Source: Escherichia phage MLP3
DNA: 64,000 nt
Sequence record: OK148440
Direction: 5' to 3' (one strand)
Made by a program: the position numbers and the translations under genes. The number at the start of each line of letters is the position of its first letter. The stretch's first letter is position 1. Of the stretch, positions 366 through 50,140 are shown piece after piece. Below the pieces are notes generated by a model. That model was not told where the DNA came from and ran no database searches. It worked only from the letters and a program-made list of their open reading frames with translations.

Positions 366-781
366 ATTAATATTTCCTTATATAAATTTAAGATTGTTGC
401 TCTCTTTGAGCGGTTTGTATACTATATACATTACACTTATACAGATAAGGTTCTATTATACTATAACCTTTTTGGTAGTAGATAATGACAAGTAGTAATG
501 TATATATGGTATAGCTAGTAAAGCTATTGCAGGCTTGTATATTGGGCAATTCATAGAATCCCTTGCAAGTACCGAAGGGCAGGAGCCACCTGCGAGATAA
601 AAATAGAGAATTAAGGAAATCCTTGATTTAGGTTGTAGGGACTCCTAGGGACTTTGATTCTCTATTTAAAAGAATATTAATTACTTACTACCTAAATAAT
701 TAACTAACTTACTTAAACCAAACTCAAGAATAATAGATAAAAAGATTATTCCTAAGAAAGCTAAAAAGTAAAGGATATAAG

Positions 782-6079: not shown

Positions 6080-6349
6080 TTACTCCACTGTCGGGAATGG
6101 TTTTAGGTTGTTCATGGCTGTACGAACATCAGCACAGATTTCAGGATCACGATAAGAGAGGAATTTACCATCCTTACCACGAATCATTACATTAGTCCGT
6201 GCTGTTTTATTAGGCAATAAAGAAATCCCTCCAATAAGATGGTTGGTAGGGTGTTGTCCTTGATTAACCTTGTAGTCATGAGTCTGAGCGTCACCATTAA
6301 AGAGATGATCACGAATTTGGATTAAGCTAATCTTCATATTATGCACCAA
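6080..6349 (-). CDS. hypothetical protein, tandem paralog (ARTNV-RG-DGKF-S-RD family)
   Basis: Shares NKTARTNVMIRGKDGKFLSYRD...NLKPFP with adjacent gene. Confidence 0.5.
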   Translation of the reverse strand: MVHNMKISLIQIRDHLFNGDAQTHDYKVNQGQHPTNHLIGGISLLPNKTARTNVMIRGKDGKFLSYRDPEICADVRTAMNNLKPFPTVE

Positions 6350-6626
6350 AGTTAGGGAAAGGTTTCAGATTTTCAATAGACTTAGCAATACGCTTAGGAA
6401 CAGCCTTATCACGGAAGGAGATGAACTTTCCATCAGGACCACGAAGGGCTACATTAGTACGAGCTGTTGTTTTGTTAAACTGAATCATCTCAACAGAGCT
6501 TGTAACATTTTCTACAGGAAAAGTATAGCTCTCAGTTGTGTTCAGAGAAGGGAGGAAATCAGTTACAGTGATGTAAGTTACTTTAGACATATTTATTACC
6601 TTAGGTTCTATAAAAGAAAAGGCCAC
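6339..6626 (-). CDS. hypothetical protein, tandem paralog (ARTNV-RG-DGKF-S-RD family)
   Basis: Shares KTTARTNVALRGPDGKFISFRD...NLKPFP with adjacent gene. Confidence 0.5.
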   Translation of the reverse strand: MAFSFIEPKVINMSKVTYITVTDFLPSLNTTESYTFPVENVTSSVEMIQFNKTTARTNVALRGPDGKFISFRDKAVPKRIAKSIENLKPFPNFGA

Positions 6627-6964: not shown

Positions 6965-7008
6965 AACTCCTTAATATATCAGTGTACACTAAGGAGTATA
7001 CATTATGT

Positions 7009-8721: not shown

Positions 8722-9030
8722 TTAGATAACCTTGTGCTTGTAGATGCTAGGGTTGAAGTAATGCAACCAGTTTATGTATTGTTTCTGTTCAAGGTAGTGT
8801 CTGCAATCATGACAAAAAGCATGACCCAAACCTGTTTCCTCGTTCAGCTTGAAGTTGATAAGAAGCTTCTGCTTTTGACAGAAGCTACATGCTTTAGTGG
8901 GCTTCACGTAGTGCATCCCATGAGATTGGGAAAAGTTTACGAAGCTCTTCATCAACAGTTGATGCGAACACTCGTACTTCATACTGAGCATGGTCGGACA
9001 GTCGCTGACGACATAACTCTGACCAGCCAT
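8722..9030 (-). CDS. Cys/His-rich small protein (start uncertain; overlaps 3' end of thyX)
   Basis: CSFCQ...CHDCRHY zinc-finger-like motifs; no convincing SD at any candidate start. Confidence 0.35.
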   Translation of the reverse strand: MAGQSYVVSDCPTMLSMKYECSHQLLMKSFVNFSQSHGMHYVKPTKACSFCQKQKLLINFKLNEETGLGHAFCHDCRHYLEQKQYINWLHYFNPSIYKHKVI

Positions 9031-9544
9031 ATAAAGAACCTGTCCACACCCACTCAGTGATCATACCTTGAGGTAGAACGAATCGGGCTTGCTCTGGAGC
9101 AATAAACTTAATCAACTCATCATATGACTCAAGAGCTGTTTCATATGCCCGATTAATCAGAACTAGTGCAGAGTTTTGCGCTCCTGTGGTGAGGAGATTC
9201 CCCGCACCTGCATGGAGGTCCGAAGGTCTTTCAAAAATCTCTTTAGGGATGAAGAGTTCAACTGCTCCATCTTTATACCGCCGGGACATTTCGTTCCACG
9301 AGAATCCAACTTGATGCTTGCCCAGCTGTCTCGCAATTGCGATTGGCGCTTTGCATCGGAAGCTAATTGTCGGATGGCGGAATGGTGTGACATGCTTTTC
9401 TCTGGCAAGGAACTTGATAAGGCGTTCATCTCGTTCATTTAACTCTCCTTCACGAGTAACCCCAAAGGAAACTCGAGCTGCATTAACAACAGATTTATCA
9501 GAACCCATTGCTTCAATTAGTGTTGCTTGTAATTGTTCGTTCAT
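8894..9544 (-). CDS. thyX: flavin-dependent thymidylate synthase ThyX
   Basis: ThyX signature RHP(x)...S and SRRY (RHR-x7-S-like motif). Confidence 0.8.
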   Translation of the reverse strand: MNEQLQATLIEAMGSDKSVVNAARVSFGVTREGELNERDERLIKFLAREKHVTPFRHPTISFRCKAPIAIARQLGKHQVGFSWNEMSRRYKDGAVELFIPKEIFERPSDLHAGAGNLLTTGAQNSALVLINRAYETALESYDELIKFIAPEQARFVLPQGMITEWVWTGSLYGWSELCRQRLSDHAQYEVRVFASTVDEELRKLFPISWDALREAH

Positions 9545-9558
9545 CCTTGAATTCTTCC

Positions 9559-9774
9559 TTAGTAATGAATCTTTTTATAAATCAGGTTGCTTCCACTTTC
9601 TGTTTCAATCCCTTTCTGGATTGTAATCTTAGAAGCACCGGTATTAGCAATTTTTAAAGCTCGTTTAAAGCGGCGAGCCTCTCTCCGTGTTGTGTATGAG
9701 GAGAAGCTAGGGATTGTACTATCAAAATTAAACCACTTAACTACCCAAAAAGTAATCCAAGGTTTCTTTTCCAT
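9559..9774 (-). CDS. small basic protein, paralog family A (TRQEAR...KK...Y-Cterm)
   Basis: Similar to 11431..11646 and 11646..11858 (W-rich N-term, RREARRFKRALK, C-terminal KKIHY). Confidence 0.5.
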   Translation of the reverse strand: MEKKPWITFWVVKWFNFDSTIPSFSSYTTRREARRFKRALKIANTGASKITIQKGIETESGSNLIYKKIHY

Positions 9775-9775
9775 A

Positions 9776-10105
9776 TTAAATACCTTTCAGAGCTATATCT
9801 AAAAACGCACGGAGGTTTGATTCAGTTTGCATACCGGACAAGCTGTAGTGAGCACCACTGTTCATATTAGGAACTACAAAGGCTGGGATACTACGAACAC
9901 CGTATTCAACAGCTCGCTCTCGACCATCACCTTCAGTGATATTCACTTCTTCAACCTCTACGTTGTAATCAGCTACAACTTTCTTAAACACAGGAGCCAT
10001 AGCTGCACAGGGTGCACAGGAATTACTATAAAACTTAATAACTTTACTCATTCTATTCCTTGTTAATAAACAGATTGATATGACGCTGGGTAGCAGGAAC
10101 AACAA
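9776..10105 (-). CDS. thioredoxin-like protein
   Basis: CAPC active-site motif, SIPAFVV strand, about 109 aa. Confidence 0.65.
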   Translation of the reverse strand: MLFLLPSVISICLLTRNRMSKVIKFYSNSCAPCAAMAPVFKKVVADYNVEVEEVNITEGDGRERAVEYGVRSIPAFVVPNMNSGAHYSLSGMQTESNLRAFLDIALKGI

Positions 10106-10228
10106 TAAAAGACTTATACTGCCCTTTTGCTAAATCATGGGCAATCTTCTTCGTCTGACCAAGACCCATTACACAGCCACTAACGATAATGGCATGTGCT
10201 TGTAGCTCTTCAGGGAGGCTTAATTTCA

Positions 10229-10450
10229 TTATGCAGTCCACAGGTGGAGAAGGAAAGGAATCACAACAGAGAAGACTACCAGAGCAATGCTGCCATGTTT
10301 AATGGGTTTAGCGTCATTCGGGTTCTCTTTAAGCATCTGTTTCTGAGCTACATAAACGATACCGCCAACAAAAATTGCCCATACAGACCATACGATTGCT
10401 GAAAACATACTCATATCCTTATAAAGAAGTTCGCCCCACCTCTTGAACAA
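10229..10450 (-). CDS. small membrane protein
   Basis: Two hydrophobic segments (FSAIVWSVWAIFVGGIVYV; IALVVFSVVIPFLLHLW). Confidence 0.4.
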   Translation of the reverse strand: MFKRWGELLYKDMSMFSAIVWSVWAIFVGGIVYVAQKQMLKENPNDAKPIKHGSIALVVFSVVIPFLLHLWTA

Positions 10451-10471
10451 AGAGACAGGGCGGAGGTTTGA

Positions 10472-11047
10472 TTAGTAAGACACGTCACCACTGGAGTGGG
10501 ACATGTTGCTCTTGACGAAGTAACAGAACTTGCCAAGACCTTCATTAATTTCTTGAAGCATACTCTGATCAACTGGATAGGTGCACAAGTCTGAATCAAA
10601 CTCGTCCATCTTCTCAATGATACACATAAGAGTCATGCACATGTCGGAAAGCATACCGTCCATGTCGAGATCAGCGTTACCTTCTCGGAACCAAGCGTGA
10701 CCTAAATAGTTACTAGCAGTGGCATCCACCTTAACACAATGGAAGCGCATACGCTCTGCTATTCGGTCGCCTGCCTCACGGGCATAATCTTCTAGTTCAT
10801 CGAACATACCATGAACACCTTGGAAACCAGCTCCAGAGACGTTCCAGTGGTAGTTCTTTGCTTTGATGTGTAGAAGTTCAAGGTTAGCCTGCACACCACA
10901 AAGAATGTGCTCTAGGCTGTTACTGCTAATCAGTTTATTCATTCCCTCAAGACGAGAGATAGAAGAATCAGTAGTAGAGAATGGATTACTAGAACCCACT
11001 CTTGTTAGTTCTGGTAAGTCGAAGACATTATTATGCATTAGGTGCAT
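10472..11047 (-). CDS. Dps/ferritin-like protein
   Basis: HWNVSGAGFQGVHGMFDE resembles the Dps ferroxidase-site helix (HWNV...F...H...DE). Confidence 0.55.
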   Translation of the reverse strand: MHLMHNNVFDLPELTRVGSSNPFSTTDSSISRLEGMNKLISSNSLEHILCGVQANLELLHIKAKNYHWNVSGAGFQGVHGMFDELEDYAREAGDRIAERMRFHCVKVDATASNYLGHAWFREGNADLDMDGMLSDMCMTLMCIIEKMDEFDSDLCTYPVDQSMLQEINEGLGKFCYFVKSNMSHSSGDVSY

Positions 11048-11378
11048 CCCCTTCTAAGTTAGTTGAATTAGCTACATTACGAGCAATGTTATCCATGACC
11101 TGCTGTGTAATAACAATGCAATTCTGAGGGTCTACCGATTTAGAACGCCCCATCTCAGGGTCATAGACTTTGACTCGCTTGGCTGTTGAGCCAGTAACTT
11201 GCAACACTTTGAGAAGATAACCTTGGTTTCCAATAGACCATGCAACAACATCACGATTCTTGATATAACGACCAAGCATATCACGATGATAGAACTGCTG
11301 CATAACTTTAGCTTTGCTAATCTCTTCAGATGGCGGGGCCACTTTACTCAAATCTAACATAACTCTCTCCTGTTTCAT
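11031..11378 (-). CDS. hypothetical protein
   Basis: 115-aa ORF. Confidence 0.5.
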   Translation of the reverse strand: MKQERVMLDLSKVAPPSEEISKAKVMQQFYHRDMLGRYIKNRDVVAWSIGNQGYLLKVLQVTGSTAKRVKVYDPEMGRSKSVDPQNCIVITQQVMDNIARNVANSTNLEGDAPNA

Positions 11379-11430
11379 ACAATATTCTTATACTGTATAT
11401 ACATTTGAGAGTTATCATATCTACTACCAA

Positions 11431-11646
11431 CTAGTAATAAACCTTGCTGGATATGAATCCAGCACTGTTATGGATATTTTCAATCCAACGATGAATCTCC
11501 ACCTTTTCAGCGATTCCTAAAGCTTTTGTAGCTTTTATAGTTTTCTTAGCAAGACGAGCCTCTTGTCTTGTGTTGAATAATTGAATACAATCACCACCAA
11601 GAGTTTTGTTAGCCCATTTAGTACGAACTGCCCATAATTTATCCAT
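11431..11646 (-). CDS. small basic protein, paralog family A
   Basis: WAVRTKWANK...NTRQEARLAKK...SKVYY; tandem with 11646..11858. Confidence 0.5.
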   Translation of the reverse strand: MDKLWAVRTKWANKTLGGDCIQLFNTRQEARLAKKTIKATKALGIAEKVEIHRWIENIHNSAGFISSKVYY

Positions 11647-11858
11647 TAGTAATGTACCTTTCCGCTGATATAGAAACGACCTGATTTAAAGTCTTGAGCT
11701 TTGTGGATAGTGATCTTATTAATTGTGCTTTCACAACTTAATAAGAACTTCTTATGAGCGCGAGCTTCTTGACGGGTATTCCTAATACCCATTGACTCTG
11801 TACCACTGCTCCAGTGAATACGAACTACCCAACGTCTTTTCATTGTTCCAAACTCCAT
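11646..11858 (-). CDS. small basic protein, paralog family A
   Basis: WVVRIHW...NTRQEARAHKK...GKVHY. Confidence 0.5.
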   Translation of the reverse strand: MEFGTMKRRWVVRIHWSSGTESMGIRNTRQEARAHKKFLLSCESTINKITIHKAQDFKSGRFYISGKVHY

Positions 11859-12049
11859 TATCTGTCAACCGATTTAGGGACAAACTGCATTACACAGACC
11901 TGACTACGAGGGAGATTTATTTCACAAGCGGCTCTTCTCGTCTCAATCTTAACGCTAGAATCTGGACCAACGTTAGATATAAATACTCCCATAGCAAATG
12001 CCCCAACTACAAAACCTATAGCTAAGTAAGTAGCTTTTTCTTCTTTCAT
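11858..12049 (-). CDS. small membrane protein
   Basis: N-terminal hydrophobic helix LAIGFVVGAFAMGVFI. Confidence 0.4.
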   Translation of the reverse strand: MKEEKATYLAIGFVVGAFAMGVFISNVGPDSSVKIETRRAACEINLPRSQVCVMQFVPKSVDR

Positions 12050-12054
12050 CTTGG

Positions 12055-12588
12055 TTATACACCCTTAGATGCAACTACACCATTACTGCCGTTGTATCGA
12101 CCCTTCACTGCATAAGAGTCATCACCAGCGTGAGAGTGTTCGAACATAACCATTTGACCAACACGCATCCCAGCACGAACTCGTAAGCTATGATTATGGG
12201 TAACGTTATGAAATTCAAAGGTTAGTTTACTGCTGTTAAACCCTGCATCAGCCCAACCAGCATGGAGGTGGTTTAAACCACAACGAGCCATTGAGGAGCG
12301 AAGTACAAACAGGCTTGAGATGTTATCTGGAAGGTTAAACTCTTCCATTGAGTGCGCTAAGAAGAATTGCCCCGGAGTGATAACAATACCATCTTCAGGG
12401 ATTTTTACTTCTTTCCACTTGAGGTTTTCTTTAGCATCAATGTCAACAATTCCGTCAGCCTGTTCTTCAACAAGGATAGTATCACCAATACGGATATCCA
12501 CGCTAGCAGCGTTAACATATTTATGCTCCGCATCTAAAAAGCCATTATCAATAACGCTGTGTAATTCTTGAGAACCTAAAAGACTCAT
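12055..12588 (-). CDS. dcd: dCTP deaminase
   Basis: dCTP deaminase/dUTPase-fold motifs VDIRIG, GWADAGF, GRYNGSNG. Confidence 0.8.
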   Translation of the reverse strand: MSLLGSQELHSVIDNGFLDAEHKYVNAASVDIRIGDTILVEEQADGIVDIDAKENLKWKEVKIPEDGIVITPGQFFLAHSMEEFNLPDNISSLFVLRSSMARCGLNHLHAGWADAGFNSSKLTFEFHNVTHNHSLRVRAGMRVGQMVMFEHSHAGDDSYAVKGRYNGSNGVVASKGV

Positions 12589-14036
12589 GAGTTTCTGTTT
12601 CCTTGTACAGATGATGCCAAATTATTAATCATGTTACGAGCTGTTTCACGAGATAGTGTAACACCTGCTAAGTTGTTATGAAGCTCACCAGATAGCTCAC
12701 GAGCAGCAGCTCGAAGTTCTGTACCAAGTGTAGTATCGGAGTGAGCCAAACCATTACGACGACTATAAGGTCGAGGAGCTTCGTTAGCGTCATTAGCCAA
12801 TGATGCAAAACCAATACGAGCAGCTTCACGAGCCGCTATAGTTGACACTCGATCTTCCGTAGGGGTTGGCAAATCACCAACTTCTACACGTTCTATATCA
12901 CCAGCACGTAGACCCTGAGCGACTGAGCTTACTGTTTCCCATGAACGACGAGAACGCTGTAAATCACCCATTGACGGAGAAGGAATAGGACGAGCAGTTC
13001 CTCCTTGGACATGCCATGTACGAGTATCCATTCCAGAAGAGCGTGCACTACCAAAACTGCCAGTGAAAGTGTCACGAGGTGCCATTGTAGGAGGAACTGC
13101 GAATCTTTCCTGTTGCCAAGAATCGCGTCTGTTAGTTCCCGGAGTCCAAGGTTGTTCAATTGCTTCAGCACCGATAGTAACTAATCCACTAGACCATTCT
13201 GTCTGTAGGTTAACTTCTTCATCAAGATAAATACGACCCCTTTCCTGAGGAATATTTAATGCAACCTCCATCATCTTCAGGGTATAATGACGACGTTGAT
13301 TCTGGTATAAGTTTACACCAGCCATAGGTCCAACTAACTCACTGATTGGATAAACTTCTGGCTCACCAAAAGCACCCATCGCAAGGTGCATGTATTCGGT
13401 AGAACTGCTATAAACTGCAACAGTTGCTTCAGGCCACTTTTTGTAGACATACTTCATTTCACGGCCTGTCACCACAGGGATAGAATCAGTATATGCCATT
13501 GCAAACAAACCTTCGTTTGACACATACATATCATTAAGAGTCATAAATCCTTGACAGATCATAGGGAAACGACGACTCAAAGTATCCATATCCAAAGGTA
13601 GATTAATCATCATCTGGATTTTAACTTGATCAATCTCAATTTCCAGAATCTCTTGGAAAGTGAAAAGTGATTCAGTATAGGTTGTTCCACTGATAGGCTG
13701 AACTAAGCGAGATGTGGTTTGAAGTCCTTTACTTTCTGTCCAAGATAAGAAGTTGTCAAGGAAAAGTGCAGCATTACCTGCGTTAGCAGGGCTGTTTTCC
13801 TGACGAGTGTTCCAACGAAACCCTCCTTGAACTAGGAAGATATCAACATCATTCGGAGTTCGATTTTGGAAGAACGTATCACGGATAGCACCACCTGCAA
13901 TAACAGGATAGATGCCATCAGGAACTACGTTGTCTCTGATCAGATTGCGAATCAGATCAAGCCCTACGCTGAGGGCTTCTCCTTCTTGAAGGTTTAATTC
14001 AGACAATGGAATCTTAATCATTTCTACATTTTCCAA
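12585..14036 (-). CDS. Pol-beta superfamily nucleotidyltransferase (CCA-adding/polyA-polymerase-like head domain)
   Basis: IAGGAIRD ... DVDIF matches the GG-x-VRD / DxD motif of tRNA nucleotidyltransferase head domains; C-terminal 250 aa low-complexity. Confidence 0.55.
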
Positions 14037-30551: not shown

Positions 30552-30627
30552 TGTGGTGCACCCTACAGGACTCGAACCTGTAACCAACGACTTAGAAGGT
30601 CGCTGCTCTGTCCGTTGAGCTAAGGGT
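30552..30627 (-). tRNA. tRNA-Arg (anticodon UCU)
   Basis: 76-nt cloverleaf folded by hand: acceptor GCACCCT/AGGGTGC, D-stem GCTC/GAGC, anticodon stem GCGAC/GTCGT with loop CTTCTAA, T-arm ACAGG-TTCGAGT-CCTGT, encoded CCA. Confidence 0.9.
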
Positions 30628-30638
30628 GCTGAATTTGT

Positions 30639-50076: not shown

Positions 50077-50140
50077 AAGACCTATACAAGCTAGTGTGTA
50101 ATGTATATTCTTTGTCTACATATAACAAGGAGGACAACCT

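What the first reader, a model, noticed from the sequence alone, without database searches (positions are those of the whole stretch)
9559..11858. Second paralog family: three ~70-aa basic proteins (W-rich N-terminus, TRQEAR core, C-terminal K-x-HY)
ORFs 9559..9774, 11431..11646 and 11646..11858 share a W-x-V-R/K-x-W N-terminus, a (N/T)TRQEAR-x-KK core and a K(V/I)(H/Y)Y C-terminus, with two in tandem. These are likely small nucleic-acid-binding or regulatory proteins, duplicated within the early region.
Basis: seen in the sequence. Interest (0 to 1): 0.45.

Follow-up and report, generated by a model that had tools for sequence, protein, structure and literature searches.

The report
Variable array of small basic phage proteins
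The three small basic proteins are real paralogs of an uncharacterised family found only in phiEco32-like coliphages, where two to five diverged copies sit in one fast-changing slot between highly conserved genes; what they do is unknown.

Summary
The three minus-strand ORFs (9559-9774, 11431-11646, 11646-11858; the last more likely starts at 11843) are significantly similar: BLASTP E 2e-5 to 6e-10, shuffle z 8.6-14.9.

All three match PHROG 4939 ("unknown function", E 1e-22 to 1e-26). The window is a Suseptimavirus, a phiEco32-like podophage. The tandem pair corresponds to phiEco32 gp70 and gp69.

The family has no Pfam, NCBIfam, PADLOC or PDB relative. Only 18 genuine 50%-identity clusters turned up among 1.84 billion proteins.

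All copies found in the sampled loci occupy one of two slots:
- a tandem array of 2-5 abutting genes between dCTP deaminase and the conserved P68 middle promoter;
- 0-2 extra copies between thioredoxin and ThyX.

The array is a hypervariable island. Its flanks are 92-100% identical between phages whose array proteins share only 41-48%. Within lineages, dN/dS is below 1 in every comparison with more than two synonymous differences.

Function is inferred only. My best guess is nucleic-acid or phosphate binding by an early accessory protein. A host-factor or anti-defence role is nearly as likely.

The parts
11646..11858 (-). Copy C (phiEco32 gp70 type). It is the first gene of the tandem pair. 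The likely start is ATG 11843, giving 65 aa with pI 10.75.
   Evidence: ORF. Matches PHROG 4939 at E 3.5e-26. AF2 pLDDT 79, fold ββαββ. dN/dS 0.03-0.24 among orthologs. 48% identical to phiEco32 gp70.
11431..11646 (-). Copy B (phiEco32 gp69 type). It is the last gene of the array, 71 aa, pI 9.9. Its ATG overlaps the stop of copy C (TAATG).
   Evidence: Matches PHROG 4939 at E 2.2e-22. AF2 pLDDT 87.3. dN/dS 0.17-0.66. 42% identical to phiEco32 gp69.
9559..9774 (-). Copy A, a satellite copy between thioredoxin and ThyX. 71 aa, pI 10.3.
   Evidence: Matches PHROG 4939 at E 5.9e-22. dN/dS 0.06-0.28. At least 90% identical in 18 phage records. Absent from phiEco32, SU10, SU7 and Bas86.
11379..11430 (-). 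Conserved intergenic region holding the ortholog of phiEco32 middle promoter P68 (AAATGTATA at 11398-11406). It is the downstream boundary of the variable array and the early/middle boundary.
   Evidence: Nearly identical in all 16 loci compared. One mismatch to the consensus tAATGTAtA. P68 is characterised experimentally in phiEco32 (PMC12276001).
11858..12049 (-). 63-aa predicted membrane protein. It is not a family member. It lies between dCTP deaminase and the array; Kuravirus and Nieuwekanaalvirus arrays carry a gp71-type third copy that the window lacks.
   Evidence: No HMM hit and no Pfam hit. phiEco32, SU10, 4E8 and KBNP1711 carry a gp71-type family member as the first gene of the array. 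KBNP1711 has both a gene of the same size in the corresponding place, not compared by sequence, and the third copy. The gene is absent from EK010, SU7 and Bas86.
12055..12588 (-). dCTP deaminase, the conserved upstream flank of the array.
   Evidence: 93% aa identity to phiEco32 and 96% to 4E8. Nucleotide identity falls from 93-100% to below 50% at its 3' end.
11031..11378 (-). gp68 homolog, the conserved downstream flank and first gene after P68.
   Evidence: 92% aa identity to phiEco32 and 97% to 4E8.
9776..10051 (-). Thioredoxin, the upstream flank of copy A.
   Evidence: Annotated in relatives. 80-93% aa identity.
8894..9544 (-). ThyX thymidylate synthase, the downstream flank of copy A.
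   Evidence: Annotated in relatives. 84-100% aa identity.

Best explanation
Shown by the evidence:
- The three ORFs are expressed-looking, selection-constrained paralogs of a family restricted to one phage lineage. The family is PHROG 4939, and its phiEco32 members are gp69, gp70 and gp71.
- The family forms a tandem array of 2-5 abutting, probably translationally coupled genes. The array sits at the 3' end of the early transcription unit, between dCTP deaminase and the P68 middle promoter.
- Satellite copies sit in the thioredoxin-ThyX slot.
- Whole array variants are exchanged between phages by recombination in the conserved flanks.
- Each protein is predicted as a single ββαββ domain of 64-82 aa.

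Inferred mechanism:
- The invariant helix N-terminus (Thr cap, then Arg, Arg and Lys at positions i, i+4 and i+7), together with a positive charge kept across all family members examined, forms a phosphate- or polyanion-binding surface.
- The proteins would therefore bind nucleic acid, or a nucleotide-like or nucleic-acid-bound target, early in infection. They would act as dispensable, diversifying accessory factors in host takeover or protection of phage DNA.
- The variable loops and strands would set specificity.

The stated confidence refers to the binding mechanism. That these are real paralogs in a variable array is near certain.
For: Paralogy is significant:
- BLASTP E 2e-5 to 6e-10.
- Shuffle z 8.6-14.9.
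- PHROG 4939 at E 1e-22 to 1e-26.

These are real genes. dN/dS is 0.03-0.66 in every comparison with more than two synonymous differences. The only values at or above 0.7 are gp69-type pairs resting on one or two synonymous differences.

Array architecture and copy number (2-5, plus satellites) come from 16 loci.

Hypervariable island:
- Against phiEco32, DCD is 93% identical and gp68 92%, but copy B is 42% and copy C 48%.
- Against 4E8, flanks are 96-100% identical, but copy B is 44% and copy C 41%.
- The nucleotide identity profile shows sharp boundaries at about 12040 and 11412.

The P68 region downstream is conserved, and P68 is an experimentally characterised middle promoter (PMC12276001). 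CDS 69-125 are classed as early (PMC4281155).

Fold: ββαββ, pLDDT 79 and 87.

Charge and motifs:
- All 34 distinct members have pI 9.3-11.0 and net charge +4 to +12.
- Small ORFs of the same window range from pI 4 to 11.6, median 8.85.
- Invariant W, T, R, A, R and K, and a near-invariant C-terminal Y, across 30 diverse members.
Against: - No sequence or structural relationship to any known nucleic-acid-binding family. Pfam, NCBIfam and PDB sequence searches are empty.
- Basic pI alone is weak evidence: 15 of 53 small ORFs in this window have pI ≥9.7.
- Cassette-like hypervariability and copy-number change are more typical of proteins that engage host proteins or defences than of generic nucleic-acid binders.
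- No expression or proteomic evidence exists for these proteins. SU10 proteomics did not detect gp69-71.
Confidence: 0.35

Rival explanations
1. The proteins are protein-binding inhibitors or modulators of host factors, including anti-defence proteins. Each paralog would bind a different host protein or allele through its variable surface. The array would diversify in an arms race.
For: - A hypervariable island inside conserved flanks, with variable copy number 2-5 plus satellites.
- Position at the end of the early unit.
- Restriction to one virulent phage lineage.
- Gordonclarkvirinae are reported as remarkably resistant to RM and other defence systems, with no known mechanism (PMC11990801).
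Against: - The invariant basic helix motif and the uniformly basic charge across all subtypes suggest a common ligand rather than many different protein targets.
- Within lineages selection is purifying, not positive.
Confidence: 0.3
2. The proteins are accessory subunits or regulators of the neighbouring phage nucleotide-metabolism and replication enzymes (dCTP deaminase, ThyX, thioredoxin, Dps-like protein, nucleotidyltransferase). They might form B/C hetero-oligomers.
For: - In the sampled loci, copies occupy only two slots, both inside the nucleotide-metabolism module.
- Abutting or overlapping start and stop codons suggest translational coupling and equimolar synthesis.
- B-type and C-type copies are present in all 98 related phage records.
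Against: - The putative partner enzymes are 84-100% conserved where the array proteins are 41-48% identical. Co-evolving subunits would be expected to track their partners.
- Copy number varies and subtypes are freely gained and lost.
- Copy A is missing from phiEco32, SU10, SU7 and Bas86, although ThyX and thioredoxin are present.
Confidence: 0.12
3. The family consists of distant, phage-adapted members of the widespread bacterial DUF2188 (PF09954) family. That family has a similar size and a W-x-V-K…T-x-x-E-A…I-H…G pattern.
For: hhalign of the family profile against a 31-sequence DUF2188 alignment picks the expected register, W-V-R aligned to W-A-V-K and T-R-x-E-A-R aligned to T-Q-A-E-A-I.
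Against: - hhalign probability is only 4.9%, score 16.6 over 31 columns.
- None of 30 members hits PF09954 in hmmscan at E ≤10.
- DUF2188 has no known function, so membership would not explain the mechanism.
Confidence: 0.08
4. The ORFs are chance open frames, or selfish passenger genes of homing-endonuclease cassettes with no benefit to the phage.
For: In relatives, the ThyX-thioredoxin slot that holds copy A also holds free-standing HNH endonuclease genes. It holds copies plus HNH in Bas87 and EK010, and HNH alone in SU7 and Bas86.
Against: - dN/dS is well below 1 wherever there are enough synonymous differences to judge it.
- Motifs stay invariant at 25-30% identity.
- The tandem array is present in all 98 related records with no adjacent HNH.
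- The fold is confidently predicted.
Confidence: 0.03

Closest known systems
PHROG 4939, including phiEco32 gp69, gp70 and gp71 and SU10 gp69-71
   Same: This is the same family. All three window proteins match full length at E 1e-22 to 1e-26. Gene position is syntenic between dCTP deaminase and gp68. Copies C and B are the positional orthologs of gp70 and gp69.
   Different: - The window's clade lacks the gp71-type copy and instead carries a 63-aa membrane protein between dCTP deaminase and the array.
- It also has an extra copy (A) between thioredoxin and ThyX that phiEco32 lacks.
- Orthologs are only 42-48% identical.
- The family has no assigned function.
Plastic accessory-gene regions of virulent phages. 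Examples recalled from memory: small early host-takeover genes of T4 and T7, and anti-defence gene clusters.
   Same: Small genes, early expression, variable copy number, mosaic replacement between conserved core genes, and restriction to one lineage.
   Different: Here all the genes in the slot are paralogs of one family, with an invariant motif and a conserved positive charge. No member matches any known anti-defence or takeover protein.
DUF2188 (PF09954)
   Same: Similar length and a similar motif order: a β-strand with W-x-V-K/R, then a helix starting with T-x-x-E-A, then a strand with I-H. hhalign chooses this register.
   Different: Not statistically supported: probability 4.9%, and no hmmscan hit at E ≤10. 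DUF2188 members in the sample came from bacterial genomes and metagenomes. The phage family lacks their C-terminal D-G-R-I-R…G-x-D-P motif.

Membership tests
PHROG 4939 (phage protein family of unknown function) | Full-length match to the family profile HMM | tested here: met
   E 5.9e-22 (A), 2.2e-22 (B) and 3.5e-26 (C), covering profile positions 1-67 of 67.
phiEco32 gp69/gp70/gp71 ortholog group | Syntenic position between dCTP deaminase and gp68/P68, plus sequence similarity | tested here: met
   Copy C is 48% identical to gp70 and copy B 42% to gp69. The gene order and the downstream P68 region are the same. No gp71-type copy is present in the window.
Any Pfam, NCBIfam or PADLOC family | Profile match at or near the curated threshold | tested here: not met
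   No Pfam hit at E ≤10 for the three proteins. Only scattered single-member noise appeared for 30 members. NCBIfam gave only two far-sub-threshold chance matches, and PADLOC none.
DUF2188 (PF09954) | Significant profile-profile or profile-sequence similarity | tested here: not met
   hhalign probability 4.9%, score 16.6, 31 columns. No hmmscan hit.
Known nucleic-acid-binding folds (RRM, dsRBD, Alba, HU, RHH and others) | Structural superposition with a clearly significant score and shared binding motifs | tested here: inconclusive
Known anti-defence proteins (Acr, Ocr, Ard, Gad, Tad and similar) | Sequence or structural similarity to a characterised member | tested here: not met
phiEco32 early gene class | Transcribed by σ70 holoenzyme from the right-end early promoters, upstream of the first middle promoter | not testable with these tools
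   Position only. B and C lie directly upstream of the conserved P68 ortholog. SU10 and phiEco32 CDS 69-125 are classed as early. The primary macroarray paper (PMC3275717) was not available.

The most novel reading that the evidence does not exclude
The array is a diversifying multigene family of early counter-defence proteins. Each subtype would neutralise a different nucleic-acid-targeting host immune system, for example by masking phage DNA or sequestering a nucleotide signal. Cassette exchange of array variants would contribute to the so far unexplained broad resistance of Gordonclarkvirinae to restriction-modification and other defence systems.
Probability: 0.12. Interest if true: 0.75.

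Novelty: new member of a known kind. Interest (0 to 1): 0.36.

Why it matters
Gordonclarkvirinae (phiEco32-like phages) are abundant coliphages with broad host range and are candidates for therapy. Their strong resistance to restriction and other defence systems has no known basis (PMC11990801).

This family is one of very few loci in an otherwise conserved replication and nucleotide-metabolism module that varies sharply between close relatives. That makes it a concrete, genetically tractable candidate for a host-interaction function. BASEL phages Bas86-88 grow on K-12 with restored O-antigen, so the experiments are feasible.

If the family turns out to be only a generic small nucleic-acid binder, the result would be of local interest.

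Tried and rejected
- **Profile libraries.** Pfam, NCBIfam and PADLOC gave nothing.
- **PDB sequence search.** Profiles of 13 and 30 sequences gave only noise: Sec3 at E 0.046 and a Gifsy-1 protein at E 0.67.
- **Exhaustive HMM search of 1.84 billion proteins.** It returned 19 clusters. One, P0022, is a spurious repetitive 1068-aa protein.
- **DUF2188 lead from memory.** Tested by hhalign and rejected as unsupported.
- **Collection scans.**
  - IMG/VR yielded one locus, an ECBP2-like genome.
  - GTDB genomes yielded none.
  - tblastn with the distant member P0021 found nothing in phage genomes.
- **C-terminal K-V-x-Y as a disordered docking tail.** I dropped the idea because the deeper-MSA model folds it back onto the sheet with pLDDT ~79.
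- **Resemblance of the helix to the λ N arginine-rich motif.** This is recalled from memory only. I did not pursue it, because here the helix belongs to a folded domain and the genes lie at the end of the early operon, not its start.
- **Literature.** No paper mentions these proteins. The primary phiEco32 genome and transcription papers were not held.
Full report
**What is there.** ORF listing confirms three minus-strand ORFs at 9559-9774 (A, 71 aa), 11431-11646 (B, 71 aa) and 11646-11858 (C, 70 aa).

They align over their full length and share these motifs:
- an N-terminal W-x-V-R/K strand;
- a (N/T)TR(Q/R)EAR-x-x-K(K/R) core;
- a K(V/I)(H/Y)Y C-terminus.

The similarity is significant. Pairwise BLASTP gives E 6e-10 (B/C), 2e-9 (A/C) and 2e-5 (A/B). 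Local alignment scores lie 8.6-14.9 sd above 2000 shuffles, and none reached the observed value. HMM and jackhmmer scans of all six-frame ORFs find exactly these three copies in the window.

C abuts B with a TAATG stop/start overlap. C itself most likely starts at the second ATG (11843). That start has a GGAG 9 nt upstream, fits the family consensus MKKxW, and is the start annotated in the nearest relatives (UKE3, Bas87, SU7), giving 65 aa.

**Where the window comes from.** The region is 98.4% identical to Escherichia phage vB_EcoP-101114UKE3 (Suseptimavirus, Gordonclarkvirinae). It matches 98 phiEco32-like phage records.

The neighbouring genes are ThyX, thioredoxin, a Dps/ferritin-like protein, a gp68 homolog, dCTP deaminase, a nucleotidyltransferase, and replication genes.

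**The family.**
- All three proteins match PHROG 4939, "unknown function", full length at E 1e-22 to 1e-26.
- There is no Pfam, NCBIfam or PADLOC hit.
- No significant PDB sequence hit appears, even with a 30-sequence profile.
- An exhaustive profile search of 1.84 billion cluster representatives finds only 19 clusters. One is a spurious repeat protein; the rest are 65-78 aa proteins with the same motifs.
- IMG/VR yields one locus and GTDB genomes yield none.
- Among cultured phages the family is confined to phiEco32-like phages of Escherichia and Shigella, plus one Salmonella phage. Structural matches also appear in Salmonella SE131 and Cronobacter GAP52.
- No paper in the searchable library mentions these proteins.

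**Architecture across relatives.** I scanned 16 loci from phage genomes and metagenomic contigs with family HMMs. The family occupies two slots.

1. A tandem array lies between dCTP deaminase and gp68.
   - 2 copies: the window, UKE3, Bas87, SU7, EK010, Bas86 and L006.
   - 3 copies: phiEco32 gp71-gp70-gp69, SU10, 4E8, KBNP1711, L009 and L013.
   - 4 copies: L007.
   - 5 copies: L011.
   - The genes abut or overlap.
   - In E. coli phages the order is fixed: gp71 type, then gp70/C type, then gp69/B type.
   - The window lacks the gp71-type copy. A 63-aa membrane protein (11858-12049) lies between dCTP deaminase and the array.
2. The thioredoxin-ThyX junction holds 0-2 copies.
   - The window has A.
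   - Bas87 and EK010 have two copies plus an HNH endonuclease.
   - SU7 and Bas86 have only the HNH.
   - phiEco32 and SU10 have nothing there.

tblastn census of cultured phage records:

| Copy type | Records |
|---|---|
| C type | all 98 |
| B type | about 100 |
| gp71 type | about 61, at ≥60% identity |
| A type | 18 at ≥90% identity, plus about 20 with a ~37% identical relative in the same slot |

**A hypervariable island.** Amino-acid identity of window proteins to two other phages:

| Protein | vs phiEco32 | vs 4E8 |
|---|---|---|
| dCTP deaminase | 93% | 96% |
| gp68 | 92% | 97% |
| Dps-like | 84% | 99% |
| ThyX | 84% | 100% |
| Copy B | 42% | 44% |
| Copy C | 48% | 41% |

The nucleotide identity profile against 4E8 has sharp edges:
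- 93-100% in the 5' part of DCD;
- 17-72% from about 12040 to 11413;
- back to 92-100% from 11412 onward.

Such a contrast cannot come from divergence in place. Whole array variants must be exchanged by recombination in the conserved flanks.

Within a variant lineage the genes are under purifying selection. Nei-Gojobori dN/dS is 0.03-0.24 for the C type, 0.17-0.66 for the B type, and 0.06-0.28 for the A type. The only higher values (0.70, 1.42) are gp69-type pairs with one or two synonymous differences, too few to interpret. The ORFs are therefore real protein-coding genes.

**Transcriptional position.** The 50-nt spacer after the last array gene is almost invariant in all loci and contains AATGTATATA (window 11398-11406). 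This is the ortholog of phiEco32 P68, a middle promoter used by the gp36 holoenzyme and characterised experimentally (PMC12276001; consensus in PMC8948821).

The SU10 paper, by homology to phiEco32, classes CDS 69-125 as early and 25-68 as middle (PMC4281155). B and C are thus the last genes of the early unit. A lies in the middle unit. SU10 proteomics did not detect gp69-71.

**Structure and conserved features.** AlphaFold2 predicts the same single-domain ββαββ fold for both copies modelled. C gives pLDDT 79 with a 13-sequence MSA, and B gives pLDDT 87.3 with a 26-sequence MSA. In the second it folds back as a short strand.

Across 30 diverse members the invariant positions are one Trp in β1 and T-R-x-x-A-R-x-x-K at the helix start. 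The terminal Tyr is near-invariant. In a helix, the Arg, Arg and Lys at i, i+4 and i+7 lie on one face (inference).

All 34 distinct members are basic, with pI 9.3-11.0 and net charge +4 to +12. Small ORFs of the same window span pI 4-11.6, with median 8.85 and 15 of 53 at pI ≥9.7. The charge is therefore a conserved family trait, though not an exceptional one for a single small phage protein.

**Interpretation.** The following are shown:
- a real, selection-constrained, lineage-restricted multigene family;
- its two slots, and its variable copy number;
- cassette-like replacement of array variants;
- its position at the early/middle boundary;
- its predicted fold and invariant motif.

Inferred with moderate-to-low confidence: the invariant Thr-capped helix N-terminus, with its Arg/Arg/Lys ridge and the conserved positive charge, forms a phosphate- or polyanion-binding site. 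On that reading the proteins bind nucleic acid, or a nucleotide-like or nucleic-acid-bound target, early in infection.

The population-genetic pattern argues for a dispensable, diversifying host-interaction or counter-defence role rather than a core replication function. The BASEL study reports that these phages resist RM and other defence systems with no known mechanism (PMC11990801). That makes a counter-defence role worth testing, but no evidence yet links it to this family.

**Rivals.**
- Protein-binding inhibitors of host factors. This fits the variability as well or better, but fits the common invariant basic motif less well.
- Accessory subunits of the adjacent enzymes. This is disfavoured because those enzymes are highly conserved where the array is not, and because copies come and go.
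- Distant DUF2188 membership. hhalign probability is 4.9%, so it is unsupported and would not explain function in any case.
- Chance ORFs. This is refuted.

The family is already catalogued as hypothetical proteins (PHROG 4939). I found no description of it in the searchable literature as a variable paralog array bounded by DCD and P68. It is a new example of a known kind of thing, a plastic accessory-gene slot in a virulent phage, and is of moderate interest.

Noticed in passing
window 6080-6337 and 6339-6590 (- strand): This is another tandem paralog pair, of 85 and 83 aa, 36% identical at BLASTP E 2e-14.
   Followed up: partly
window 12585-14036 (- strand): The 483-aa "nucleotidyltransferase" upstream of dCTP deaminase is also hypervariable. 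It is 31% identical to phiEco32 gp73 and 81% to 4E8, while the adjacent DCD is 93-96% identical. The window protein has no Pfam hit, but a homolog in metagenomic locus L006 carries a weak Pfam Gad2 (Gabija anti-defence) hit.
   Followed up: partly
window 11398-11406 (- strand), within spacer 11379-11430: AAATGTATA lies in a spacer that is nearly invariant across all related loci. It is the ortholog of phiEco32 middle promoter P68. Perfect TAATGTATA matches also occur at 425-433 (-), 496-504 (+), 6997-7005 (-) and 50099-50107 (+). These are candidate gp36-dependent promoters.
   Followed up: partly
window 11445-11464 (- strand): An 8-bp stem with a 4-nt loop (TGCTGGATTCATATCCAGCA) followed by a weak T-rich tail lies inside the 3' end of copy B, just before the early/middle boundary. 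It could be an RNA 3'-end or stability element. EK010 and Bas86 carry different bases at these positions, and I did not check whether pairing is preserved.
   Followed up: no
window 11858-12049 (- strand): A 63-aa ORF with one hydrophobic helix (YLAIGFVVGAFAMGVFI) lies between dCTP deaminase and the array, in a clade that lacks the gp71-type third copy. It is absent from EK010, SU7 and Bas86. A gene of the same size sits in the corresponding place in KBNP1711, alongside a third copy; I did not compare the sequences.
   Followed up: partly
L001 4013-4225 (Bas87_0057); L014 1536-1748 (EK010 ORF58); the slot corresponds to window ~9545-9775: The ThyX-thioredoxin junction is a second variable slot. 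In relatives it holds extra, very divergent family copies, a free-standing HNH homing endonuclease, or both. Homing may drive turnover there.
   Followed up: partly
window 30554-30629 (- strand): A single tRNA-Arg (anticodon TCT) gene.
   Followed up: no
window 8722-9030 (- strand): As listed, this 102-aa Cys-rich ORF overlaps the 3' end of ThyX by about 137 nt. Most relatives annotate a shorter gene (186-195 nt), so the true start is probably internal. It has a weak zinc-ribbon (Elf1-like) Pfam hit at E 0.002.
   Followed up: no
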